Assembly (NCBI RefSeq): GCF_006345805.1
Contig: NC_043016.1
Span: 8,246,001 to 8,310,000, forward strand
Source of the DNA: Octopus sinensis
Taxonomy: Eukaryota
Length of the DNA stretch: 64,000 bases
Reading direction: 5' to 3'
In this document: positions 4,171-41,141 of the stretch, piece after piece
Layout of the letters: each line of letters starts with the position of its first letter
Position numbering within the stretch: the stretch's first letter is position 1
Program-made: the position numbers and the translations under genes
Notes under the pieces: model-generated
What the model was told of the DNA's origin: nothing
The model's database searches: none
Seen by the model: only the letters and a program-made list of their open reading frames with translations

Positions 4171-5074
4171 CTCATCATTTTCCTAACAGTGTTTCTATCT
4201 TTATTCAACTATCATTCAAACATTGCATGTAACTACACAAATTACATTTATATTTCTCACTACGTATGCACACTGACACACACACATGCATATATATACA
4301 CACACATATATATATATATTGTGCACACACACAGATAGATAGATAGATAGATAGACAGATAGATAGATAGATGGACAGACAGATAGATAGAGAGATAGAT
4401 AGATAGATATGTATAATCTTCCAATCTCTCACCACCACTTTCTCTTTCCTCCTACCCTCTTTCCATCTGTACATTAATTTGGGTGTGTTCTTGCTCCAAA
4501 TTTACTGCATTGTATGTGTGTGTTTGTACATAAACATATATAATATATAGACATGTTTATATATGTGTGTGTTTACATATATGTATTTGTATCTGTGTGT
4601 GTGCTCACAAATATATATATAGAAGAATGCGTTCCATTGGTTTTTCAAACTGCTGAGTCCTTCATGACTCCTGACAGAAAGTCACTTCTTATGGTAACAG
4701 ACACAATTTGAACTTAGAGAGCTGAGTGAGACATGAAGCAGTCTATCCAACACTCCTTTGACTCTTTTGTTACCTTGAAAATATATATATATATATATTG
4801 GTAAAAACGGTGAGATAACAAAAGAAAGAAAGATACCTCAATATTATGTAAATAGAGGAAATATATATATATTGTCCTTACCTTTGAATATATATATATA
4901 TATAATCGTCCTTACCTTCGAAATGCAGAGTAGATGAAACAGGAACAACTGAAGAAGGGGAATTTTCCTTGTGTTGTATGTCTTGTTTCTCTGTTACCTT
5001 TTTTTCATTGTTTGAAAAAATATTCATTTCTATGTTTTTGTTTTTATGTTTTCGTTTCTCATTGTGTTCGAACC

Positions 5075-6280: not shown

Positions 6281-6410
6281 TGACTGTATCAGTATATATT
6301 ATATATATATATAATAAATTAAATTTAGGGTAAAAATTGATATTTATCAATTAGAACCAGTGGTCTAGCATATTAAAAAAAGTATCCGAAGATTAAAATA
6401 TTTATATATA

Positions 6411-6673
6411 CCAATTAAGGACTGCACACGAAAAGTGGACAGTCAACATGCTAGATATAGACGTCAAATCGCCATTCTCCACAAAAAGTTTATGTTCTCA
6501 GATCAAACTCAACAAAACCAAAGTAATAAACAAGTGAAAAATTTTTCACTTGTTTATTACTTTGGTTTTGTTGAGTTTGATCTGAGAACATAAACTTTTT
6601 GTGGAGAATGGCGATTTTGACGTCTATATCTAGCATGTTGACTGTCCACTTTTCGTGTGCAGTCCTTAATTGG
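6411..6673. repeat. Near-perfect spacerless palindrome (131 bp arms) embedded in (TA)n
   Basis: CCAATTAAGGACTGCAC...GTGAAAAA|TTTTTCAC...GTGCAGTCCTTAATTGG, with one 1-nt indel seen. Confidence 0.95.
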
Positions 6674-6709
6674 TATATATATATATATATATATATATAT
6701 CATCATCAT

Positions 6710-6826
6710 CAAAAGGATGAAAGGTAAAGTCGACCTCAGCGGAATTTGAACTCAGAACGTAGCGGCAGACGAAATACAGCTAAGCATTTCGCCCGGCATG
6801 CTAATGTTTCTGCCAGCTCGCCGCCT
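6710..6826 (-). mobile_element. SINE family C (Meta-domain-like), 5' part
   Basis: Reverse complement of GGCGGCGAGCTGGCAGAAAC...GAGTTCAAATTCCGCTGAGGTCGACTTTACCTTTCATCC. Confidence 0.8.
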
Positions 6827-6850
6827 TTCTCTGTTTCTTTTCTCTTATTC

Positions 6851-6886
6851 CTTTCTGTCGAAGAGTGTAGGCTCGAAACATAAAAG
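6851..6886 (+). ncRNA. Minimal hammerhead-ribozyme-like motif (variant core, decayed)
   Basis: CTTT-CTGTCGA-A-GAGT-GTAG-GCTC-GAAAC-ATA-AAAG. Confidence 0.4.
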
Positions 6887-7494
6887 ACTTTCCCGCTTTC
6901 CAGGGCATCAAACTAATACTCCTGCTTGTTGTTCATACACCTGTCTTCATCTTTTGTTTTCTGTGAATTTCATATATATGTGTGTGTATTGTATTTTGAT
7001 GGTGAAGTTTCTTATGTGTGTGTGTATGTAGACAAACAATGAGAAATACATTATACTTTACAGAATTCCATGTTGTAAAATTTTATGACTTAAACAAAAT
7101 TGATGAAGAATAGAGCAAAATATAGAATGACAAGTAACATATACATATTCCATATGTTTGCCATTGTCATAGATTCATTTTTCTTGTGAATGTGTGTATA
7201 TAAATTATACATACATAATTTATTAACACTATGTAATTGAATATACCAGTCACTGGCTTTATACAAGCTGGTGCTGCCATAAATTAGAGCAAAAATCTAT
7301 AAAGACCTGTCGAGATGTCTTTAGATCTCTAGTACTTTCTCTGCTAGTGTAAAATGCCCTACCTTAGGAATTTGATGTGGAAATTTAAAATTCAGAAAGA
7401 GTCTATTTTATTAGTGACAGGAATAAATACTTCATAAATACTAAAGTTTGTCTTTGTGCAAGTTTAAGTAGGCTTCATAGAATCTGATGATGAT

Positions 7495-7547
<53 letters not shown>

Positions 7548-7617
7548 ATGACCTCTTGTGTACCGTTGGCGATTTTTTTCCTAAGTCTTCCATTCTCTGG
7601 ATCTTTCCTTCTCCTAT

Positions 7618-7652
7618 GTTTCCAATGAAGAGCTCCGCTCGAAACGTTAGAC
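7618..7652 (+). ncRNA. Minimal hammerhead-ribozyme-like motif in a ~200 bp (TA)n-flanked element (7550-7745)
   Basis: GTTT-CCAATGA-A-GAGC-TCC-GCTC-GAAAC-GTT-AGAC. G5 is lost, consistent with CpG decay. Confidence 0.5.
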
Positions 7653-7972
7653 CCTCCTTCTTTCCTGAGCGTCCAATAATACTATATTTGTTCCACGTCC
7701 TCGCGCTGTTGTGTTTTTTTGTGTTTTCTTGTTTGGATTAACTTTATATATATATATAATATATATATATATATTATATATATTTTAGAGGGAACCACCA
7801 TGTGGACACCCATATGCTAGAAATAGATCCGCTACGGTCTCACCACCAAGAAATGTTCTCAAGAAAAATTTAGCAAAGCAACCAAAACATAATCAAGCAA
7901 GACAAAAAAAAAAGCAATAAAAATATGGATTATTCGTATATATATATATATATATAATATATATATATATAT

Positions 7973-8034
7973 ACAATTGCAGCGTGGAAGGTGTTTCTTA
8001 AATGGCTTACAAACACCTTCCACGCTGCAATTGT
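7973..8034. repeat. Perfect 24-bp-stem hairpin with 14-nt loop
   Basis: ACAATTGCAGCGTGGAAGGTGTTT ... AAACACCTTCCACGCTGCAATTGT. Confidence 0.9.
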
Positions 8035-8089
8035 TTTCATTTCAGCACACGATCTCAGATCAAATCACTTGCTATGCGAGTACATCTCG

Positions 8090-8130
<41 letters not shown>

Positions 8131-8628
8131 AATAAAAATTTATATATAAAGAGACGACACAGAAAACAGACAGGTCATTTGAAGCCTTTAATCTTCAGTC
8201 AGAAACCGGATCATCATAGCAAATTTCGGCTGATTGATTCTGATATTTGCTCCAACACAGCCAGCCCCAAGGAAAAACTAAGCTGTGAGCATTAGATTTC
8301 TTGGTAAAAAGAACGAATGTAAATGCAACAGAGACAAATATAAATACAAAAAACGAAAACAGAATTAAAAACAAGAATGGTTAATGGCAGGTGTCTTACG
8401 ACTTTAGACAAAATGAGACAAAACAAGCATATATGGGTGCTGGTGTCACATAAACGCACCCAATACTTTCTGTAAAATGATTGGCATTAGAAAAACACTT
8501 CTAGCCGTAGAAACCATGAAGCCCGGGAAGCTCTTCAACTGGCCAACTCCTGTCAAACCATCCGACCCATGCCAGCATAGAAAACAGAATTAAATTATGA
8601 TGATGATATATATATCATCATCATATAT

Positions 8629-8850
8629 ACTCTCTTTACTCTTTTACTTGTTTCAGTCATTTGACTGCGGCCATGCTGGAGCACCGCCTTTAGTCGAGCA
8701 AATCGACCCCGGGACTATTCTCTTTGTAAGCCCATACTTATTCTATCGGTCTCTTTTGCCGAACTGCTAAGTGACGGGGACATAAACACACCACCAGCAT
8801 CATTGTCAAGCAATGCTAGGGAGACAACTATAACACACAAACACACACAC

Positions 8851-8890
<40 letters not shown>

Positions 8891-9070
8891 TATATATACA
8901 CATATATACGACGGGCTTCTTTCAGTTTCTGTCTACCAAATCCACTCACAAGGCATTGGTCGGCCCGAGGCTATAGTAGAAGACACTTGCCCAAGGTGCC
9001 ACGCAGGGGGACTGAACCCAGAACCATGTGGTTGGTTAGCAGCTACTTACCACACAGCCACTCCTGCACC
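8629..9070 (-). mobile_element. SINE family A, full length
   Basis: Complete head with A/B-box-like motifs, internal (TA)/(TG) tract and (AAAGAGT)n tail. Confidence 0.9.
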
Positions 9071-9112
<42 letters not shown>

Positions 9113-9917
9113 TTAATTCTCATATTCAGGTTCAATTAAGTTTGTTATAGTAAAATTGAATTATTCTATTTTATTGAGCTCTTTGCTAAACTTTTGCACA
9201 AAGTATTCTTTAGTATTTGTTAAAGGTTAAACACTGTAAACAGAGCAGATGAAATTAACCTCATCAGTCAGTCAGTCAGTGCACACCAGCCTTCCATCTT
9301 CTTATATTGAAAACCCTGGAAACCTAGACAAGACCCACCATTAACCTAAGTGCCTTATCATTGAACTGACAGCTGTAATAGTTGATTGACCTCTCCCACC
9401 ACAGCTCTTCTCACATCAGCTTACTGGTACAGATTGATAAAACAAATGTAACATGTAAAAATGATTTTACCCTAATCACATAATAAAGCGGATTTCTGCA
9501 CACTGAAATAAATACAACCCATCATGTTAGGTAGGAAGGAATACTAAATAAAAAACTTCTTCAGTGTAAAAGGAATCCTTGACAGCAAGTGCCGTTGCAA
9601 GCTATTTTGGTAGCTATAACTCATCTTTCTTCTGAAATTTCTGAGTCATGGAGACAACTATTTTCTTCAAGCAGACCTTAGACTATGTTGTATATGTAAG
9701 CCCTTGTTAGCTAAATCCCTCTCTGCATAATGGAGTGTCTTAAGAGAAAAGAAAGTCTGAATAGAAATTATGTAAGGTGGAGTGAGTGAATGCATTAGTT
9801 CTTCCAAAGCGATCTGCTTCAGTGATCGTGGCCTGATGGAATACCTTCTCTTCATGCTGTGAAGTCTGAGAGATACTTAAGGTTCAGCCAACAGTTTACA
9901 AGTATGGAGTAAACAAT

Positions 9918-10320
9918 CATCATTATCGTTTAACGTCCGTTTTCCATGCTAGCATGGGTTGGATGTATGACTGAGGGCTGGCGAACCAGATGGCTGCACC
10001 AGGCTCCAATCTTGATTTGGCAGAGTTTCTACAGCTGGATGCCCTTCCTAACGCCAACCACTCTGTGAGTGTAGTGGATGTTTTTTACGTGCCACCGGTA
10101 CAGGGGCCAGAGGAGACTGGCAAACGGCCACGATCGGTTGGTGCTTTTACGTGTCACCAAGATAGATGCCAGTCAGGCGGCGCTGGCATCTGCCACGTTC
10201 AGACGGTGCTTTTACGTGTCACCGAGACGGACGCCAGTCAGGCGGTGCTGGCATCTGCCACGTACAGACGGTGCTTTTCTTTTAACGTGTCACCAGCACG
10301 GGGTCTTAACTACTATTTCC
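9918..10320 (-). mobile_element. SINE-like family B (GGAAGGGCATCC motif, (ATG)n tail) with internal ~65-bp tandem repeats
   Basis: CATCATTATCGTTTAACGTCCGTTTTCCATGCTAGCATGGGTTGGA...GGATGCCCTTCCTAACGCCAACC. The GGTGCTTTTACGTGTCACC unit is repeated. Confidence 0.8.
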
Positions 10321-10388
10321 ATTCAATTTTCATCTGATGTTGGTGTTAACAATGATAGTGTAATTATAAAGAGGATGACTCAAACATA

Positions 10389-10653
10389 TCTTTTATCTTT
10401 TACTTGTTTCAGTCATTAGACTGCAGCCATTCTGGGGCACCACCTTGAATTTTTTTAGCCGAATAAATCGCCCCCCTCCCCCCACAGTACTTATTTTATT
10501 TTAAGTCTGGTTTTTATTTTATCGGTCTCATTTGCTGAACCGCTAAGTTACGAGGACATAAACATGCCAAAACTGGTTGTCAAGTGGTGATGGGTGGACA
10601 AATGCAGACACAAAGACCACACACATAGATACTCACATGCATACATACATACA

Positions 10654-10696
<43 letters not shown>

Positions 10697-10738
10697 TATA
10701 TATATATATATGCAATATAACATACATACATACATATA

Positions 10739-10790
<52 letters not shown>

Positions 10791-11182
10791 ATCCAAACAA
10801 GAAAACCACAGAAAAAAGAGAAAAAAAGGGAAAAAAACACAGCAACGCAGGACGTGGAACAATTAAAGTATTATTGACGCTCGGGAAAGAAGGGAAGGAG
10901 GGTTTAACGTTTCGAGCGGAGCTCTTCGTCGGAAACAAGGAGAAGGAAAGATCCCAAGGAGGGAAGACAGAGGAGACAATATTTGAGCTGGTGGTGCTTA
11001 AGAGATCACATGTTGAAAAGATGATAGGTTTCTTTTCAGTTTCCATCTACCAAATCTACTCACAAGGTATTGGTCAGCCTGAGGCTATAGTAGAAGGCAC
11101 TGACCCAAGGTACCGCACAGTAGGGCTGAACCCGGAACTATGTGGTTGGCAAGCAAGCTTCTTATCACACAGCCACTCCTGT
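10389..11182 (-). mobile_element. SINE family A with a nested hammerhead-bearing element (10787-10975)
   Basis: Tail at 10389-10620 and head at 11025-11182, separated by microsatellite plus insert. Confidence 0.8.
10902..10936 (-). ncRNA. Minimal hammerhead-ribozyme-like motif (best preserved, U4C core)
   Basis: Minus strand reads GTTT-CCGACGA-A-GAGC-TCC-GCTC-GAAAC-GTT-AAAC. Stems I and II pair perfectly, and AACGTT at stem III is palindromic. Confidence 0.55.
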
Positions 11183-11439
11183 GCTATATACACATACATA
11201 TACACATGTCTTTATGTGTGTATATATAGATACATGTTGCATTTAAACAAATAAGAACTAAGAAGCATTTTGTGGCATGTAGTTGATCAACGCAGACAAA
11301 TACACATATATCAAATACCCTACAACATTAATTCTTAATTCATCAAAATTATCTCCGCCTCCTGAGGACGTGTGCCACAATTACCAAAATCATTATTAAG
11401 ACTGGCTCCTTTTGAGAAGTTGAGATAATCTCTACTCTG

Positions 11440-11775
11440 TGTGTGTGTTTTAGGTATGTGTGTATATATGTATGTGTGTATTATGTATGTGTGTATTATA
11501 TACCTGTGTGTATATTTTTATGTGTATTATGTGCTTGTGTATATATATGTGTGTGTATTATGTATGTGTGTATTATATACCTGTGTATATATTTGTATGT
11601 GTATTATGTGCTTGTGTATATGTGTGTATTATGTGCCTGTGTATATATTTGTGTGTGTATTATGTGCATGTGTATATATTTGTGTGTGTGTTATGTGCAT
11701 GTGTATATGTGTGTGTGTGTGTGTGTTATGTACATGTGTATATATTTGTTTGTACTATGTATGTGTGTGTATGTA
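11440..11775. repeat. TG/TA-derived minisatellite (TGTGTATTATGTGC.TGTGTATAT units)
   Basis: Visible tandem units that explain three overlapping spurious ORFs. Confidence 0.85.
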
Positions 11776-12126
11776 TTCTCATCCAAAATGGAGATGAGCA
11801 CCAACATTCTCAAGTGAATTGCTTGAATAATTATCTAGACATATGCAATTATGTATAATCTTTGGTTGCCTTGTCAGTCCAAAAATAAAGAATGTTTATT
11901 TACCAATGCAGAGTTGAGCACTCATTCTCCCCGTTCGATATTTTGTATATGAAGCCATAAATCTCGACGCATTTTTTTTTCTCCTTTTTTTTTTTCTATT
12001 TCCTTTTTTTCCTCTCACCCCTTTCTGTCAAAGGCTCAAAATATCAAAGACTTTTCCCATCTTCTCGCATTTGTTTTCTATACATTTGAACCACATGTGT
12101 GTGTGTGGATATATATATATATATAT

Positions 12127-12478
12127 CAATGGCAATCCCTCAAGGTCGAGGATGATGGTCTTCACGCAAATTTACTGGTGAGTCCGTAGGTGACCGATAA
12201 GACCAATTCTTGCTTGAAAAGATCGGTCACAGTGCGGACATCTAGTGCCGGAAGGGAGAGTCGCACGTGGTTGTTGTTGGCACTCCTTCCGTCGTCGTCT
12301 TTTCTCCTCCAGCTCTGCAGACCCTTTCGACTTGAAAGTCGCCGTTCCTCATGGATGGTGGTTTTCCAGAGTGGCCTGTTTTTTTGCCGTTTCCTCCCAG
12401 TTAGTGAAGTCGATGTCACACTTTTTGAGGTTCGTTTTCAGGAGTCCTTGTAGCGTTTCTTCTGGCCTCCTTTCTGTT
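12127..12478 (-). mobile_element. RTE-clade LINE 3' end with a C-terminal C2H2 finger
   Basis: Frameshift-corrected translation GGQKKRYKDS.KTNLKKCDIDFTNWEETAK.RPLWK...CPHCDRSFQARIGLIGHLRTHQ*, followed by a short 3' UTR. Confidence 0.85.
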
Positions 12479-12522
<44 letters not shown>

Positions 12523-13288
12523 GTAGGTAGGATAAAAGCCAAGTTATGTCCTTTTGAAGAACATCTAATTCCAGTACTACAATCCAGCTCATAGTTGTTG
12601 TATTGATGTAAGGTACATCTCAGAGGTGAAAATTTTGCAAATATTGTTTTTGGAAGTATTATTATATAACAAAAGAAGAATTTTAAAAAATTTTTTTGGG
12701 AATATATTTGTTCACCATTACACATATTTCATTTACTAATAGGAATCAAAAAGTTGTATATGTTGGATAAACATGTAAGAAATTTCCCATTAGACTACCA
12801 AAAACATTTCCAACTTCCTGTTGTGTTCTTTAATAAACTCTGCAAACAATATTTCTAGAATTTTCAACTCTAATATGTACCCCCACATCAGTACGACAAT
12901 GGATTGTAATACCAGAATAAGCAGATGTGCTTCATGAGTACATAGCTTGGATTCCCCCCCACACACACACACACCTTTGTAACATACATAATCAGTCTGA
13001 TTAAATTTATTTAAGCACTTATAAACTGTTAACATCTAAAATGGAAAAGAAATACATTTTGATATTTCGCTGAAGGATATTTCCTATTCCAACTAAAGCT
13101 GAATATATGAAATTGTTAATTTACAGAACAAGTTCATTTATCATGCATATGCGATGGAAAGCATATTTCTTTGATAAAAACTCATACTTGGATTCTAAAA
13201 GAGAATCCACACACTATTTAGAATATTATTTTCAATCTCAAAAGAATTCACCACAAAACCAACATCATATATATGTTTGTGTGTGGTG

Positions 13289-13350
<62 letters not shown>

Positions 13351-13940
13351 GTGTGTATGAGATGATAAATACAAACAAATTAAAGAAGTATTTTGGCTAA
13401 TTATTCTAGTATTTTAATAATATACTAACATTTTTGTTTTTTTATATGTATTTAATGATAAGGAGCTTGTTAACGTAGATGATTAAAATCAACTCCTAGT
13501 GTCTTGGAGAATACTGGTTCATAATGCCCTCTTCATGGCTGTTTCTTCCTTCCCTTATTGGCAATAAACACTTGACTAATTTCGTGTTTCTTTAGCAAAG
13601 AACCTTCAGGTAGAATGAAGAATTCATTTGTGTTCTTTTAGCTAACATTGAAACTCAATTATTCTAAATTATCTTTAATTGCTATTAAGATGTTTATTTT
13701 AACCTCCTTAATAAACTCATGATTCTCTTTTTATTAATTTTAATTTTGTATATATATATATATATTTATTGTATAATGGAATTAGTGATATTCTTTAAAC
13801 TTATCGCAATTTCTTAAGATTTTTACCTACCAATCACGGGATGAATTTCATTAGTTCTCTTTGGTTTAGTGTGTGTGTGTGTGTGTACACACTTATATGA
13901 ATCTTTCTTTCAAATTCTCTGCCTGTGATTTTCTTTTACC

Positions 13941-14000
<60 letters not shown>

Positions 14001-14719
14001 TATCTATCTATCTATCTATTTATCTATCTCTTCCTCTGTTCCTCCATCTATCTCTTAGTATTTACTTCAATTTCTGTTACACTTTTTCTCTTCCTATGTC
14101 TTTGGCCATCTCTCTCCTCTCCTCTTCCAACTCTCTTCAGTTGTTTGTCTACTACCTGTCTACTACCTGTCTACCTACCTACCTGCCCTACCAACCTTAA
14201 AGTATACCTTTCTGTTAGTCTACCATTTTGATCTTCTTCCTTTCTCTCTTTCCCCACTTCCTCTCCATCGCACTATACATTTATTTGGCTGCTCTCTTCT
14301 TCTAGAGATCTTGAAGCTGTTTCCAAGTTCCATCCATTTTCTCTGCTTGTAAATATTGATTATCTTTGAGAAGATAACCAGCAGAAGGGAACAGACAGAC
14401 TATGTTAAAGGAATTTCACCAGAAATTATTCTACTGTAATGATATCATCATCATCATCATCATCATCACCAACAATACATTATTAATAGCATTAGTATCA
14501 GCTACTGTTGTTGTTGTTGATTGTGTGATGGTGGTGGTGGTGGTGGTGGTGGTGACAATTTTTGAGTTTGTCTGAAAGCTACAATTATGCAAGTGAGAGA
14601 TTTCATTGTCAACTGAATCCCCTTGTACATTACTGGTATTTTAATAACTGCTACCTCACTAACCTCTCCACCACCCCATCAAACAAACTGCATCCACAGA
14701 TGAATGGAAAGGTTAAATC

Positions 14720-15435
14720 CAGGGACATGCCACCTAGGTAGGTAAAGTAGGCAGTGCCTACCCTGAATAAAATAGATCGATAGCAACATTTTCCTTTTAT
14801 GGCAAAATATGCACCTAATTCAATAGATTTATGAAGGTTACTCTGATTATCATCATCATCATCATCGTCGTTTAACGTCCACTTTCCATGCTAGCATGTG
14901 TTGGACGATTTTGACTAAGGGCTGGCGAACCAGATGGCTGCACCAGGCTCCAATCTTGATCTGGCAGAGTTTCTACATCTGGATGCCCTTCCTAACGCCA
15001 ACCACTCCGAGGATGTAGTGGGTGCTTTTTATGTGCCACCGGCTCGGGGGGCCAGTTAGGCAGTACTGGCAATGACCTCGCTCAAATCTTTTTACACATG
15101 CCACCGGCACAGGTGCCAGTAAGGCGACGTTGGTAACCACCACGCTAGAATTACTATCCACAAAATGCAAAATTTTTTTTTTTTTTTTCTAGATTAGGTA
15201 GGCATAATTCACCCCTGCCTTTCAATCTTAATATTTAAGCAACGTATTGTAATGCAGTAGTACACATGCTGTGTGCATTCCTACAACACTGTTTTCTTTA
15301 CGTAATATAAAGGCAGAAGTAAATCTGCCTTCAACTCTGTCATGTGCCTGTGTTTTTGCTTATTTGTTTTGTGTGTTTTACTACATAAAGGTCACCGTCT
15401 GCCTACCCTGAGTAATTACTGATGGCACATGCCTG
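14720..15435. mobile_element. hAT-type non-autonomous DNA transposon with a nested family B SINE
   Basis: Exact 8-bp TSD GTTAAATC (14712-14719 and 15436-15443), imperfect TIRs CAGGGACATGCCA/TGGCACATGCCTG and subterminal TGCCTACCCTGA motifs. Confidence 0.85.
14846..15150 (-). mobile_element. SINE-like family B
   Basis: (CAT)n tail followed by sequence matching the 9918 copy. Confidence 0.85.
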
Positions 15436-15564
15436 GTTAAATCATTCTCAAGATGATATGAACTTAAAACGCAGCAGATATGAACCAGTCATTGTTACAG
15501 CATTTAAAAGTTGATTCTCTGTTACTTCTGCCTCAGCATCATATTAAAATAATAATAATAATAA

Positions 15565-16010
15565 TGGTTTCAAATTTTTCTGCAAGGGCAGCAATTTTTA
15601 GGGAGGGTTTGAGTTGATTACATTGACACCAATGCATAACTGGTACTAATTTAATCAACCCCGATGGTGGAATTTGACCCAGAATGTAACGGCAGACGAA
15701 ATACTGCTAAGCATTTTGCCCGGCGTGCTAACGATTCTGCCAGCTCACTGCCTTAATAATAATAATAATAATATACCAAATCCACTCATAAGGCTTTGGT
15801 CGGCCCAAGGCTATAGTAGAAGACACTTGCCAAAGGTGCCACGCAGTGGGACTGAACCTGGAACCATGTGGTTCGTGGGCAAGCTACTTACCAAATGGTT
15901 TCAAATTTTGCCTCAAGGGCAGCCATTTTGGGGGAGGGGATGAGTTGATTACATCAACCCCAGCCCCTAATTGGTTCTTATTTTATCAACCCCAAAAGGA
16001 TGAAAGGCAA
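15565..16010 (-). mobile_element. Cluster of family C and family A SINE fragments separated by (AAT)n
   Basis: Family C at 15565-15755 and 15896-16010, family A head at 15775-15893. Confidence 0.7.
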
Positions 16011-16787
16011 AAAATATTTAGATCTTCCTGACATGTCATCTCTGATTTAGCAAACTTTATGGTCAGAGACAGTCTAACCATGACCATCTTGTCTTTTCAG
16101 ATATAGTTTAGTTTAAACTACATACCAGATATGGCTCTCTTTTTTCTTTTTTTTTCCTGAGACGAGATGATCTTAGAGTATGATTTGAGGGCAGTTTTTG
16201 TTGTTATTTCTAGCAGGTTAATTGGCTCACCTTTTTTTTATCCACTGCCCCCACCTCCTTATAAATACAACATGGGGAAGGAAACATTTAACCATTCTGA
16301 TATTTAGAAGTCATGTTTGTATATGGTAGAATGTTGTATATTTAACTTTAGGTCAGTTCTGATCAAGCAGACCAATGATCAAAAATGTTCCAACGATGGC
16401 CATCCCGACTGTCTTTAAAATATCTAAGATTGCATTGTCCAATTGCAGATTAGAGAGAGATTTGATTGCTATTTTTTTTTTATCTTGTCATGTGAAGCCC
16501 ATCACCTTCCCCAACAAACCACCACTACCACTTCCTCAATGGATTTGCCTGTTGTCTATGATGAAAGACTAGGCATGATAGCTGTCTTTTATCACATATC
16601 TCACCACATTTGGTGGTCCATCCCATGTAATCTTGATTGGTGTTTTACAGCTGTTGAAATTTCTTTATCTGTCAAAAAGTTACCTGTTCTATCCCCAGAA
16701 GGAATTTTATTCAGCTTGTTTCCATTAGCATATTTGACAACAACCGATTTCAAATAAACCTGGAGTAAGAGATTTATTGATTGCAAC

Positions 16788-16850
16788 ATCTATCCATCCA
16801 TCTATCTATCTCTATCTGTCTATCTATCTATATCTATCTATCTATCTATC

Positions 16851-16946
<96 letters not shown>

Positions 16947-17028
16947 GTCTATCTATAAATCTATCTCTCTATCTATCTATATCTATATCTATCTATCTAT
17001 ATCTATCTATCTATCTATCTATATATAT

Positions 17029-17072
<44 letters not shown>

Positions 17073-17097
17073 TATATAGTGAGAGAGAGAGAGAGAG
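16788..17097. repeat. (TATC)n / (TA)n / (GA)n compound microsatellite
   Basis: Directly visible. Confidence 0.95.
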
Positions 17098-18124
17098 GTA
17101 GGTGTTTAGTTTGAAAACTGTTCTATAGAATTATATAGACTCTGGTTACGCCTCCATCAGATTATCTGGTCAGGAATTCTCTGCCTTTTGTTGACCATTC
17201 ACAATATTAAATCGTTTTTTGTGTATAGTGGATGGAAGTTGAGTGGTAGTGGTAGGAAACTGTTGTTTGTGTTTACCTGAGGTCAGACCTTCCAGTCAAT
17301 CTATATATGACGTGTAGATTCAAACAACTAGACATCTTTCAAAGATCTATTGGCTTTGATAAATACCATGCTGCTGGTATTTACAAAGAAGCACATACTA
17401 TGCATTCCAAAATGTAACAAAGATGTAAGTGACAACAGTCAGGAATGCTTCAGAAGAGATGACATGATGTGAACGACCAGTTCCAAGGAGCAGAGGCCAT
17501 TATAATAGCAGTGTAGGAGGTAGATAGAGGAGACAGTGCATGTCTTTGAATAACTTTATGGCAATCAATTAGATGTCATTTTTCTGGGTGCAGTCAGTCT
17601 AGGATAAAAAGGTGTTAATTAGTTAATAAATTATTTAATTGCTGATTGGTTTCTCAATTTTTTTTTTATAATTGTGGCCTTTTCAGTGCCCACTTCTTTC
17701 TGTAAAACATTCTGTGTGTGTATGTGTGTAATAATAATGATAACAATTATAATAGAAATATTGTTATTCCAATACCATCGACTAAATACACTTTTATTGA
17801 CTGGTTAACCTTATCGTTACTAAAACACTTTCAGTTATGTACTTACATGTGATAGAGATAGATAGACAGACAGACAGATATAGAAAGATAGACAGTTAGA
17901 GATATATGTGTGTGTGTGTGTGCGCGTATAGATATATATATATGTGTGCGTGTGTCTATATATATGTTTGTATATATATATATATACACACACATACACG
18001 TGTGTGTGTGTGTGTGTGTGTGTGTCTATATATATGTATATATATATATACACACACACACACAAACACATAGATCGTTAGGCACTACACACATTTTTTT
18101 TCTCTCCTTGTTTTTTCTGTGTCC

Positions 18125-18160
18125 CTTTCTGTAGAAGAGCGTAGACTCGAAACGTAAAAG
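18125..18160 (+). ncRNA. Minimal hammerhead-ribozyme-like motif (variant core)
   Basis: CTTT-CTGTAGA-A-GAGC-GTAG-ACTC-GAAAC-GTA-AAAG. Confidence 0.45.
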
Positions 18161-18244
18161 ACTTTTTCTATTCCTGAGCATTATACTAATTCATCTGTTT
18201 GTTTAGTACACCACCTGTCTTCGTCTTTTGTTTTTTTTTTTTGT

Positions 18245-18279
<35 letters not shown>

Positions 18280-19060
18280 ATAGTATATATATAATATATA
18301 TATATATATATGTATACAGGCATAACTAAAAGAACACATGCCCCACATGTTGATCACTAATAACATTGCAGTGTAATACCTCTTACTGTAGATACTACTG
18401 CAAGATGCATTGAATGTTGCAGAAGTTATGACATTTCCCAAGAACAAACAATGCTGCACGTGTTTGTAGCGGAGAGTAAAGAGTAAAGGAAGAAAAATTC
18501 ATGGAATGTTGACTAAAATATGAAATATTCTTTGTAAAGCTTTCTAAACCTTAGCTGAAGTTCTGAATTTCTATCTTGTGTTAATTAAAAAGGAAGCTTT
18601 TTCTAGAACAGGCTGAATTCTTTCATGAAGTCCCAACAAACGTTTCTTTGTAGCACATCGTTTTACCCCTGATTTCCTTCCACAATGCTCATTAAATTCT
18701 TCACAAAAACTTCCTTTTTACGTTTTAGTTATGATATCAGTTTTGCAACGTTGAGACTAGACAGAGGTGCAGAGAGGGTAGCACGAATGTGCTAGAAACT
18801 TCATTTCGTGCCGCAGAAAACTGTACCGAAGTTTATGTATGCAAGTGTGTTTGTGTATAAATGGGATGATCATCCTTTTTTCTGTTGCAAGGTTTTATAT
18901 GCCCTAATATTAGACTGTTTTCTGTAGTCAATTTACTGAATGCTTGTAATTCTATTTACAAAAATATATAACACCAGGTTATTAGCATATCACAATGCCT
19001 AAACAGTATTTTATATATATATATATATTATATATATGACATTAGATGATGATGATGAAA

Positions 19061-19112
<52 letters not shown>

Positions 19113-19180
19113 GACTGCATGTCTATCGTTGGCGATTTTCTTTCTCTGTCTTCCCTTCTTGGACTTTATCTTTTTTCCTA

Positions 19181-19214
19181 TATTCTGATGAAGAGCTCCG
19201 CTCAAAACATGACA
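19181..19214 (+). ncRNA. Decayed hammerhead-like motif with a canonical CUGAUGA box
   Basis: TATT-CTGATGA-A-GAGC-TCC-GCTC-AAAAC-ATG-AC. The GAAA and GT positions are altered at CpG sites. Confidence 0.4.
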
Positions 19215-19248
19215 TCTCTTTCTTATGTATGTATATGTATGTATGTAG

Positions 19249-19486: not shown

Positions 19487-20148
19487 AATACTTTGATACT
19501 TTGATGCTTTGATAGGTTTCGGCCATTATTGGCCCAGGCCATGTCTAACTTAATAGCACCACCTGGTGAAGTCTTTCAAGTCAGAATTTGGGCACTATGG
19601 CCACTCAAGTAGAGAGTTATTGTTTACAGAGACATATCGGGGTGTGTAGGGGTTTATCCGGGATTTCTTGAAGGAATCTGTCCAAAGACTTCTTGAACCC
19701 TATAGGGTCAGTTTCTGTTTAATGTGTTTTTGTGTTGTAATGTTAAGAGAGCGGGGCCAATTGAGGTGAAATAATTGTGCCGTATTGTGTTATGAGATGA
19801 GAGTGCGATTTTTGTTTTGGGCGGATGGCACGGGGCCAAGCCTGGATGTACCTTAAAGGTGATGCCAACATCATTTGGGCAATGCTGATGGAATTATTTT
19901 CCACATCATGCAGATGATGTAGCGCTCACGACGACGTTGGAGAGAATAGAGTTTTAGCTTTTCTAGTCGACCCCAATAGTCGAGGCCTGTCATGCCATCT
20001 ATCTTTTTTGTGATTGCCCTTGAGGGCTTCGACTTTTTTGATACCTTGTATTGTGTGGGGAGACCACAGTGGACAACAGTATTCAAGGTGGGGTCGGGCA
20101 AAAGTGGAGAAGAGAAGGATATGGTGTGGATATCTCTCGACTGTTGTG
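19487..20148 (-). mobile_element. CR1-group LINE 3' fragment
   Basis: Translation [14 protein letters not shown]...[39 protein letters not shown] (frameshifted). The 3' tail is an 8-bp repeat (ATCAAAGT)n. Confidence 0.85.
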
Positions 20149-20149
20149 T

Positions 20150-20279
20150 TATATATATATATATGTATGTATGTATATATATATTGTATATATATATATA
20201 TATGTGTGTATATATATATATATAATGTGTGTGTGTATGTATATATATATATATGTGTGTGTATGTATATATATATATG

Positions 20280-21166: not shown

Positions 21167-22265
21167 TAGAAATGCATAATGTATAGCTATGTGTATGTTA
21201 AATATGTATATGTGTCTGTATACACACATATGCATAGTGTATATAAATATACTCTCACGTGTGTGTGTGAGTGTCATTCATATATTTCATACACATTTGC
21301 AAAATTTTTAGCTTTTCAGAATAAAGTATCCAAGCCCAAACAAAAGAATGCAGTTTGATTTCAGTCTAGACATTTATTTGTTCTTCAATGTTTTGTTCCC
21401 TACTAATTAATTAGCTTGGCTGATGATTAGCATTATTTGTCTTTAAAACTTAGAACATTAAATGTGTATATACACATTAAAACATGCGATAGTTAAAACT
21501 ATATTAAATTTTTGTCTTAAATATGAAATCCTTGGATTTTACTTATTCAAATTAGCTTTATGCTTTTCTGAAGTTTTATTTTTTTTTTTTTCCACACCAG
21601 CTTTGTGCTTAATGCTTTCAACCTCAGCCCACCAGCCACCAACCACCAACACCACTACCATTATCATAATTATCATCATTATCGTCTTTATCTTCATTGT
21701 TCTCATTTTTGTTGAGCAGAAGGTGTTTTTTTTTTCTCCAGCAGACATAAAACTTAGACATACACAAAAACAGTTGAAGATATTTATAGCTTATAAATAT
21801 ATATCTATATATCTATATATATATATACATACATTTGTGTGTATATATATATATGTGTGTGTGTTCAATATGAGCAACCATTAATCCAGACAGTTTTTTT
21901 CCCCTTCTGTTTCTTTTCCTCTCTCCATTCTTTTCTTTCCACATTCCTTTCTTTAGGCTCAAAATGTCAAAGACTTATTCCATCTTCCTGAACGTCAAAT
22001 TAATACACCTTGTTTGTCGTTCCCTCACCTGTCTCTGTCTTTTGTTTTGTTTTTTTGTTTTTCATATAATTTTGAACTCAATGTGTGTGTAATCGGGCTT
22101 TTTTCCGTAAACTAAACCTTAACATTTTCATGTCATAACATTATCTGATATATATATATATATTATATATATATATATATATATATGAACGTATGTATGT
22201 TTGTGTATGTGTATATATATACATATATATGAACGTATGTATGTTGTGTGTGTATATATATTATA

Positions 22266-39867: not shown

Positions 39868-41141
39868 TTAGGCTGAGTAAAATGTAAGCAATGTTTTGAA
39901 ACATGATATATTCAACACAATATATTTTAACAATGCGGAAATTTTATTGATCAAAGTAAATACTATTAAAATCAAAACATTTTTGCCAACGAGTTACAAG
40001 TTTGTTTATTCCGGTAACATAAAAATCTGGAGTTCTGGAGCTGATAAACTTTTTGAATGCACTTTCAGCATTGGTTTGATTTTTGAACTCCATCTTCCGC
40101 AGGAAACCATCAAGGTGCTTGAAAAAGTGGTAGTCGGTAGGAGAAAGGTCTGGAGAAGAACATCGTAGCCAAGTTCCTTCAACTTGGAGTGTCGTTAGTG
40201 AAACGTGTGGTCGAGCACTGTCATGAAGAAGGATTGGATCTCTTCTATTGACCAATCTGGGACGGAGGAGTAGTAGTTTTTCATTCATTTGGGCAGTTTT
40301 ATGGCAATATGTTTCAGCAGTAATAATTTTTCCGGGTTTTAAGAAGTTGTAGTGGATGAGTCCAGCAGTACACCACTAAACAATCGCCATAACCTTCTTT
40401 TTGAAAAGCTTGGGTTTAGGGAAGGTTTTCAGTGCTTCATTTTGGTCCAAACACTGTGAAGAAGGTTTTTTTTATTATTGTACAGAATCCACTTTTCATT
40501 GCAAGTTACGATATGGTCAAGAAATGGATCAGTCTGGTTATGGAGAAGAAGCAACGAACAAATTTCATATCTGCACATTTTCTGATTTTTTTCAAATTGT
40601 GTGATACCGTTTTGTCACGCTTTTTTTGATTTTCCAATTGCAAACAAATGGTTGCAGGCAGTTTTCTGGCAAACTTGAAGTTCTTTTGCCAGTTCTCGAG
40701 TGTTTGTTATGTGGATCTTTCTCAATGACAGTCTTTAGTTGACAGTCATAAATGACAGATGGGCGTCCACTACACTCACGATCTTCAAAGCTCAGCTCTC
40801 CACTGCAAAATTGTTTAAACCCATTTCAAGCTGACCACTCACTGGTCGTTTCCTCATCAAATGGTTCACTGATATCACAAGTAGTTTCAGCTGCTTTACG
40901 TCCTTTTTTGAAGATGAATAGCAAAATTGCTCGAATATCATCACATTTTGTCAGTCCCATTTCAGATGATTGTAACAACAGTGAAAAAAATATCAATGTT
41001 AATTTTTGATGCATTTGGGCAAGTCTATGTCTGTATTATCAGACAACTGCAAAAAATGTTTATAAAAAATTCCTAACTCTGAAAAAATCCAGTACAAATT
41101 CTTCATGGTTCAAAACATTACTTACTTTTTACTCAACCTTA
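39868..41141 (-). mobile_element. Full-length mariner transposon (~1.27 kb), inactive
   Basis: 33-bp TIRs TTAGGCTGAGTAAAATGTAAGCAATGTTTTGAA / TTCAAAACATTACTTACTTTTTACTCAACCTTA, flanked by TA, with an internal transposase remnant. Confidence 0.95.
39944..40960 (-). pseudogene. Mariner transposase pseudogene
   Basis: N-terminus IRAILLFIFKKGRKAAET, SGRPS, IVTCNEKWILYNN, LLHDSARPHVS and SPDLSPTDYHFFKHLD, with stops and frameshifts. Confidence 0.95.

What the first reader, a model, noticed from the sequence alone, without database searches (positions are those of the whole stretch)
6851..19214. Dispersed (TA)n-associated short elements carrying minimal hammerhead-ribozyme-like motifs with variant cores
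Seen: five ~35-nt motifs (6851+, 7618+, 10902-, 18125+, 19181+, with remnants near 12020 and 21955) fit the type I layout stemI-CYGNNGA-A-GAGC-loop-GCTC-GAAAC-GTH-stemI'. Stem I covaries between subfamilies (GTTT/AAAC vs CTTT/AAAG), stem II is kept while its loop changes (TCC vs GTAG), and stem III is only a palindrome (AACGTT/ACGT). Known: Penelope-like elements and non-LTR retrozymes carry minimal type I hammerheads with palindromic stem III that cleave as dimers. Inference: this is a non-autonomous, microsatellite-associated Penelope/retrozyme-like family whose consensus cores (CCGACGA, CTGTCGA) deviate from CUGANGA. Caveat: the canonical CTGATGA at 19185 may just be CpG decay of CCGACGA.
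Basis: partly seen in the sequence, partly recalled or inferred. Interest (0 to 1): 0.75.

Follow-up and report, generated by a model that had tools for sequence, protein, structure and literature searches.

The report
Penelope hammerheads with fixed core changes
These short motifs are leftover tail ends of two abundant protein-coding Penelope-like jumping genes that carry a known small self-cutting RNA motif, and one lineage has replaced a normally invariant core letter throughout while keeping the rest, so the motif likely still has a job although cutting is untested.

Summary
The motifs are real, but they are not a non-autonomous retrozyme family. They are 5'-truncated 3' ends (pLTRs) of two sister Neptune-type Penelope-like retrotransposon families. 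Long copies run into GIY-YIG and RT, and 3 of 20 long family-B loci show pLTR-ORF-pLTR. The layout matches the published minimal hammerhead of such elements (PMC4209133). The core variants are inherited, not decay. Family B has U at position 6: 13,499 exact copies against 143 with A, close to a mutation control of 101. Family A has C4 in younger subfamilies (6,508) and a true canonical U4 set (2,806, against 214 for the mirror CpG product), so the CpG caveat for 19185 is probably wrong. Between B subfamilies only free positions 7 and 17 really change. No copy starts at the predicted cut (0 of 30 U6 copies; 0 of 30 rows of a canonical subfamily). Most likely a slow, protein-assisted dimer ribozyme; cleavage is untested. 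This scan noted A6U before in shark-like genomes (unchecked notes). New variant of a known kind.

The parts
6826..6972 (+). Family B pLTR fragment (older subfamily), 5'-truncated, ending at (TA)/(TG)n
   Evidence: blastn to B copies L057 (79%) and L098 (72%); sequence
6851..6886 (+). Minimal hammerhead motif, core CTGTCGA (U6), loop GTAG, decayed at 16.2
7548..7743 (+). Family A pLTR fragment between (TA)n tracts
   Evidence: 85% to the 10787-10975 copy
7618..7652 (+). Minimal hammerhead motif, core CCAATGA (likely CpG-decayed CCGACGA)
   Evidence: CCAAYGA class has 214 exact genomic copies
10787..11018 (-). Family A pLTR fragment of the young C4 subfamily
   Evidence: 96% to long copy L061; 39 other scored genomic copies at 95-97%
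10902..10936 (-). Intact minimal hammerhead motif, core CCGACGA (U4C), GUU triplet
11973..12064 (+). Decayed family B remnant, 5' core box partly lost
   Evidence: blastn
18070..18246 (+). Family B pLTR fragment (CTGTAGA subfamily)
   Evidence: 95% to L057, whose upstream runs into GIY-YIG and RT
18125..18160 (+). Minimal hammerhead motif, core CTGTAGA (U6), GUA triplet, one stem II mismatch
19110..19215 (+). Old family A pLTR fragment, 3' part lost
   Evidence: blastn; tree
19181..19214 (+). Decayed motif with canonical 5' box CTGATGA but G12->A and no stem I
21894..22058 (+). Family B remnant with the 5' core box deleted

Best explanation
The motifs are minimal type I hammerhead sequences in the 3' terminal repeats of two protein-coding Neptune-type Penelope-like retrotransposon families, left in the window as short 5'-truncated insertions at (TA)n, and in the master elements they likely still work as slow, dimer- and protein-dependent ribozymes even though family B has fixed U at core position 6 and younger family A has C at position 4. 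Shown: identity of the elements, fixed 3' end about 100 nt past the predicted cut, an element-encoded TATATAT at that end in family B, lineage-level core changes, and conservation of the other core and stem positions. Inferred: the GIY-YIG nicks (TA)n; RT starts inside the RNA at the element's own UAUAUAU, which could pair with the target; RT copies back through the intact motif and usually falls off early. Inferred: two motifs of a pLTR-ORF-pLTR transcript pair through their ACGU palindromes and cut slowly with help from the element's protein; insertions come from uncut or re-ligated RNA. The single window copies are dead and have no partner in tandem.
For: B: 18 of 20 loci chosen for long ORFs carry the motif downstream of the ORF on the same strand, all 18 with T6; 3 of 20 are pLTR-ORF-pLTR with spacing 4423, 4569 and 4361. 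The 767-aa ORF hits RVT_1 (E 1e-6) and GIY-YIG (E 0.002), both just under Pfam cut-offs, and has a CX4CX2C linker like the Neptune rows of PMC8557442 Fig. S2. A: 8 of the 9 longest copies extended hit this ORF upstream at 55-77%; A and B RTs are 70% identical and sisters (SH-aLRT 100). Counts. Among 71 B copies not selected on the core, position 6 is T in 71, position 7 is A36/T20/C11/G4, and position 17 is A55/T16, never G. Columns differing between subfamilies: B 3 of 36 in the motif (one is an artefact of a core-selected group; the other two are positions 7 and 17) against 37 of 111 in flanks; A 4 of 35 against 56 of 112. Contigs of 4 public runs pile up on the 40-nt motif and diverge at the stem I edges. 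TATATA follows the end in 70 of 80 B and 100 of 110 A copies with a recognisable end, against 6% background. 147 internal junctions, 98 of the 100 listed of one length. A lizard PLE hammerhead cuts only with protein and is dispensable for insertion in vitro (PMC11167929).
Against: No cleavage data. A6C gave kobs under 0.1 per min in a natural phage ribozyme, and U4C considerably lowers activity in vitro (PMC3088659); A6C cut a Mg2+ rate from 0.3 to 3.6e-6 per min at 0.3 mM (PMC7151607). No copy begins at the predicted cut: 0 of 30 young U6 copies and 0 of 30 rows (28 loci) of a canonical subfamily. Copies were collected by anchoring on stem II plus GAAACG; on un-anchored columns alone the conservation excess is weaker (B 2 of 18 vs 37 of 111, p=0.09; A 4 of 18 vs 56 of 112, p=0.04; pooled p=0.005). 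Loop II (GTAG) is also unchanged between B subfamilies, which catalysis alone does not require. Predicted MFE folds pair the core boxes rather than adopt the hammerhead fold. Compensatory stem changes amount to one event. Five other extended A copies ended inside the CA-rich tract with no ORF.
Confidence: 0.6

Rival explanations
1. Same elements, but the variant motifs no longer cut. They are kept as a folded RNA handle for the element's protein, a dimerisation signal or a DNA promoter element, and U6 and C4 were fixed because cutting is unnecessary or harmful to insertion.
For: A6 and U4 changes reduce rates in other hammerheads. No 5' ends at the cut. Two sister lineages each lost a core letter and kept amplifying (13,499 and 6,508 exact copies). 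Loop II is conserved in B. Catalytic mutants did not affect insertion of the lizard element in vitro.
Against: The only motif positions that really change between B subfamilies are 7 and 17, which the hammerhead consensus leaves free, and 17 stays H. Canonical-core copies also never start at the cut, so that test does not single out the variants.
Confidence: 0.28
2. The motif is simply decaying without constraint, and the core changes are drift in master copies.
For: The un-anchored excess of conservation in B alone is not significant (p=0.09). One C4 subfamily has a weakened stem I (ATAC against GTTT).
Against: B subfamily flanks differ by 11-31% while the motif differs only at free positions. 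The motif is the shared island in contigs of four public runs. Pooled p=0.005.
Confidence: 0.08
3. One reading: a non-autonomous, self-standing retrozyme-like short element family.
For: Most copies are short. Four short tandem arrays of family B (units of 448-569 nt, 3-5 motifs each) exist elsewhere in the genome and look like retrozymes.
Against: 5' ends form a continuum from 5 to about 1490 nt upstream of the cut. Long copies reach the ORF. The four arrays have four different junctions, so they are separate by-products. The window copies are single.
Confidence: 0.04

Closest known systems
Minimal type I hammerheads in pLTRs of metazoan Penelope-like elements (Cervera and De la Pena 2014, PMC4209133; read: main text parts 1-2 of 4, supplement file 2 part 2 and search passages; file 1 not searchable)
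   Same: U-rich lead, 7-nt box plus one extra nucleotide, G10.1-C11.1, GAAA, palindromic 15.2/16.2 with no loop 3, NUH, short stem I, position in the pLTR, and mostly single copies from truncated elements.
   Different: Their consensus is CUGANGAH and the only core variant I saw there is U3-A8. Here family B has U6 throughout and young family A has C4.
Neptune clade of C-terminal-endonuclease Penelope-like elements (Craig et al. 2021, PMC8557442; read: passages, supplement search and part 54)
   Same: RT followed by a CX2-5CxxC linker and GIY-YIG, pLTR partial tandems and inverted copies, microsatellite insertion bias, hammerhead near the 3' end.
   Different: That paper calls canonical hammerheads universal in such clades. 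Here the larger family by exact motif count is non-canonical. The clade call rests on linker likeness, not on a tree with reference sequences.
Poseidon element of the green anole, PAc (Frangieh et al. 2024, PMC11167929; read: parts 1-2 of 4)
   Same: Internal start of reverse transcription, AT-rich target, no footprint at the ribozyme cut.
   Different: PAc starts at a site not homologous to the target. Family B carries TATATAT at its fixed end, which matches its (TA)n target. PAc is a different clade.
Natural hammerhead core variants A6C (phage Bcep176) and U4C (viroid) (PMC3088659, section 8 and passages; PMC7151607, passages; the viroid paper only as cited there)
   Same: The same core positions are changed and slow activity is retained.
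   Different: Those are isolated ribozymes with full helix III. Here the change is A6U and U4C, fixed in thousands of transposon copies with no helix III.
Non-LTR retrozymes (PMC7229834, passages; bioRxiv 10.64898/2026.07.22.740005, part 1 of 5)
   Same: Four short tandem arrays of family-B pLTR units resemble retrozymes arising from a Penelope-like element, as the preprint proposes.
   Different: The window copies are single truncated ends, not tandem units. The arrays carry minimal U6 motifs and each has its own junction.

Membership tests
EN+ Penelope-like element (Neptune type) | Single ORF with RT and C-terminal GIY-YIG | tested here: met
   (both Pfam hits just below cut-off)
EN+ Penelope-like element (Neptune type) | CX2-5CxxC linker before GIY-YIG | tested here: met
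   CSRPRCHTC in L097, compared by eye with Neptune and Nematis rows
EN+ Penelope-like element (Neptune type) | RT tree placement within Neptune rather than Nematis | not tested
   The tree holds no named reference elements
EN+ Penelope-like element (Neptune type) | pLTR partial tandems and inverted copies | tested here: met
   3 of 20 loci pLTR-ORF-pLTR, 1 with an inverted twin; shown for family B only
EN+ Penelope-like element (Neptune type) | Microsatellite (TA)n insertion bias | tested here: met
   70 of 80 and 100 of 110 against 6% background; part of the TA is element-encoded in B
Minimal type I hammerhead of PLEs | Stems I and II, extra nucleotide after A9, GAAA, ACGU palindrome, NUH | tested here: met
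Minimal type I hammerhead of PLEs | 5' box CUGANGA | tested here: not met
   Not met in family B (13,499 U6 against 143 A6) or in C4 family A (6,508). Met in older family A (2,806)
Minimal type I hammerhead of PLEs | Compensatory stem changes | tested here: inconclusive
   One G-C/C-G swap in stem I between A and B, and one G-C to G-U in a canonical A subfamily; stem II is invariant; R-scape is not available
Minimal type I hammerhead of PLEs | Self-cleavage as a dimer | not testable with these tools
   No raw RNA reads were served; no genomic footprint at the cut
Non-LTR retrozyme | Non-coding tandem units each with a hammerhead, independent of an ORF | tested here: not met
   Window copies are single and continuous with ORF-bearing elements; four arrays elsewhere meet the tandem part only
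Non-LTR retrozyme | Expression as small circular RNA | not testable with these tools
   Only contigs were available

The most novel reading that the evidence does not exclude
CUGUNGA is a working natural hammerhead core that depends on the element's own protein or on a metal other than Mg2+. It was fixed independently in this lineage and in shark Neptune elements, and its slow cutting and rejoining makes the circular templates from which both the pLTR-ORF-pLTR copies and the new retrozyme-like arrays are copied, with priming by the element's own UAUAUAU on (TA)n.
Probability: 0.2. Interest if true: 0.68.

Novelty: new variant of a known kind. Interest (0 to 1): 0.4.

Why it matters
Why Penelope-like elements keep hammerheads is an open question in the papers read. 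This genome offers matched sister lineages with canonical, U4C and A6U cores on the same stem II, each with thousands of copies, so cleavage rate can be set against transposition success. A lineage-wide A6U would also be missed by descriptors that require CUGANGA: this one pattern has 13,499 exact copies, more than the 8,084 hits of my canonical descriptor. The window copies themselves are ordinary dead fragments.

Tried and rejected
Rfam: no hammerhead model hit among the rows shown. The reading frame at 19490-20150 is not Penelope: tblastn of the family-B ORF against the window gave nothing; it resembles a LINE tail (recalled). First attempt to link A to an ORF: 5 extended copies ended in the CA-rich tract; the link came from a second set. 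A canonical subfamily of B was rejected: CTGANGA copies fall inside U6 subfamilies and number 143 against a T4->A control of 101. CpG decay as the source of canonical A was rejected: 2,806 against 214. Expression: no RNA holder listed, contigs only; the contig overlay cannot show ends, and it did not list even the known N7 variants, so it says nothing on position 6 in other organisms. A genome-wide count of read-through across the cut was not obtained; the 30-copy samples stand instead. Pfam on 130 of 153 window frames found only a transposase fragment, so no host gene was identified. Lunse et al. 2017 (seen only as a reference entry) and Arkhipova et al. 2017 are not held; either could already list A6U or U4C among PLE hammerheads. 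Searches for prior print: hammerhead+A6U gave 2 papers, 1 listed, on twister ribozymes, not opened; hammerhead+CUGUNGA gave 0. No structure or complex prediction was run, as neither bears on the question.
Full report
Observation. They fall into two repeat families by blastn: family A (7548-7743 +, 10787-11018 -, 19110-19215 +; stem II loop TCC) and family B (6826-6972 +, 18070-18246 +, remnants near 12020 and 21955; loop GTAG). A strict descriptor finds 2 motifs in the window against 0.10 on average in 30 shuffles. Only the copy at 10902-10936 is undamaged relative to its subfamily. Rfam has no model that scores them. The host is a 2.7-Gb animal genome. Its repeats look octopus-like to me from recall, and an earlier scan note says the same; I did not test this.

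What the elements are. Genomic copies of both families share one 3' end followed by (TA)n and have ragged 5' ends. One B copy runs upstream through about 1 kb of C/T- and CA-rich sequence into a GIY-YIG and a Penelope-type RT. That protein has 13,283 candidate matches in the genome. Of 20 loci fetched for their long open frames, 18 carry the motif downstream of the ORF on the same strand, 3 have it on both sides at 4.4-4.6 kb spacing, and 1 has an inverted twin. The 767-aa frame of L097 hits RVT_1 and GIY-YIG just under their cut-offs and has a CX4CX2C linker that resembles the Neptune rows in PMC8557442. For family A, 5 copies extended first ended in a CA-rich tract over 1 kb long. Of 9 longer ones picked from 30, 8 hit the same ORF upstream at 55-77%, and 7 of those 8 have a recognisable motif. 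The two RTs are 70% identical and sister to each other among 38 rows. So the window copies are truncated ends of autonomous elements.

Fit to the known ribozyme. The supplement of PMC4209133 gives the consensus U-rich, NNN, CUGANGAH, G...C, GAAAN, palindrome, NUH. Both families fit it except in the 5' box. A canonical descriptor gives 8,084 genomic hits against 377 for the reversed control, and most of the 100 rows listed belong to family A and older relatives.

Are the core variants inherited? Family B: CTGTNGA 13,499 exact copies, CTGANGA 143, and a same-type control change at position 4 gives 101. The A6 copies sit inside U6 subfamilies. All 71 copies not selected on the core have T6, as do all 10 of 17 flank-retrieved bystanders that keep the box (read by eye) and all 18 ORF-linked copies. 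Family A: CCGAYGA 6,508, CTGAYGA 2,806, and the mirror CpG product CCAAYGA 214. CpG decay would give about equal numbers of the last two, so canonical subfamilies are real; 22 of 30 rows chosen on a downstream string alone read CTGAYGA and none read CCGAYGA. On a tree of 127 rows with the box removed, the label is clustered (12 changes against 44 shuffled). The most diverged relatives have U4, the near-identical youngest copies have C4, and the 19185 copy groups with U4 copies, though on a long branch. With B and the published consensus both at U4, C4 is most simply derived, and with A and the consensus at A6, U6 is derived. Both polarities are inferences; the trees are unrooted.

Is the rest still constrained? 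Between four B subfamilies whose flanks differ by 11-31%, 3 of 36 motif columns differ against 37 of 111 flank columns; 43 of 129 rows lay outside groups. One of the three is an artefact of a group selected for A6, and the others are positions 7 and 17. For A the figures are 4 of 35 against 56 of 112, with 26 of 127 rows outside groups. Because copies were anchored on stem II and the 3' box, I repeated the test on un-anchored columns: B p=0.09, A p=0.04, pooled p=0.005. Contigs of four public runs from four organism labels pile up on the 40-nt motif and break away at the stem I edges. That U6 was followed by change only at the free positions is the main reason to think the fold still matters. 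Loop II is also unchanged in B, which hints at a second role such as protein binding.

How it likely works. In tandem copies the family-B end continues as TTATATAT into the 5' region. There are 147 such junctions and 98 of the 100 listed have one length, so the short TA run belongs to the element. Reverse transcription likely starts inside the RNA there, as shown in vitro for a lizard element (PMC11167929), but here with possible pairing to the nicked (TA)n target. It then copies back through the motif. If linear cleaved RNA were the template, copies would start at the cut. None does: 0 of 30 young U6 copies, with extents from 5 to 1491 nt upstream, and 0 of 30 rows of a canonical subfamily. 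This fits uncut RNA or a re-ligated circle and does not separate them. Four arrays of 448-569-nt units with 3-5 U6 motifs each have four different junctions, and in two of them the units are nearly identical (1 and 6 substitution columns). They could come from rolling-circle copying or from later DNA duplication. Published A6C and U4C variants cut slowly, minimal PLE hammerheads are weak even as dimers, and the lizard one needs protein and is dispensable for insertion. I therefore put a slow, protein-assisted dimer ribozyme first (0.6) and a non-catalytic handle second (0.28).

Novelty. Hammerheads in Penelope pLTRs are known since 2014. I found no lineage-wide A6U or U4C in the papers I could read or in searches, but two key papers were not held and may list them. 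Earlier unchecked notes of this scan report the same A6U in shark-like genomes. Shark proteins are among the relatives at 53-54% but lie apart from the A+B pair, so independent origins are plausible; I could not read their pLTRs. Verdict: new variant of a known kind, interest 0.40.

Noticed in passing
L098:2186-2200 and 146 other places: Family B carries a fixed TTATATAT at the point where all copies end, matching its (TA)n target; the lizard element's start site is reported as not homologous to its target.
   Followed up: partly
L293, L294, L295, L296 (G000 C5, C8, C3, C15): Retrozyme-like tandem arrays of family-B pLTR plus 5' region, units 448-569 nt, each array with its own junction; three of four junctions rejoin about 55 nt before the core, a possible RNA 5' end.
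   Followed up: partly
window 6408-6680: A near-perfect palindrome of about 270 bp flanked by TA, centred near 6541; possibly a head-to-head transposon end.
   Followed up: no
window 7974-8033: A shorter fold-back (about 25-bp arms) next to (TA)n.
   Followed up: no
window 19500-20140, minus strand: Broken frames resembling the C-terminal end of an L2/CR1-type LINE (recalled likeness).
   Followed up: partly
window 39947-40375, minus strand: Transposase_1 fragment, E 7e-8.
   Followed up: no
window 8630-8830, 8920-9070, 10390-10620, 11030-11185: Abundant SINE-like repeats, often adjoining the Penelope ends; they look like octopus SINEs from recall.
   Followed up: no
G000:C1:26474609, 34173659, 34619925, 40481817: Family-B copies three letters shorter in the 5' box, which then reads CTGAAGA; 4 of the 100 rows listed.
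   Followed up: no
L062, minus strand near 4700; L151:3-671: Fragments of other, distant Penelope-like families (a different GIY-YIG; an RT at 24% identity).
   Followed up: no
L254, L257, L259, L260: The youngest family-A subfamily has C4, a GUC triplet and a mismatch in stem I.
   Followed up: partly
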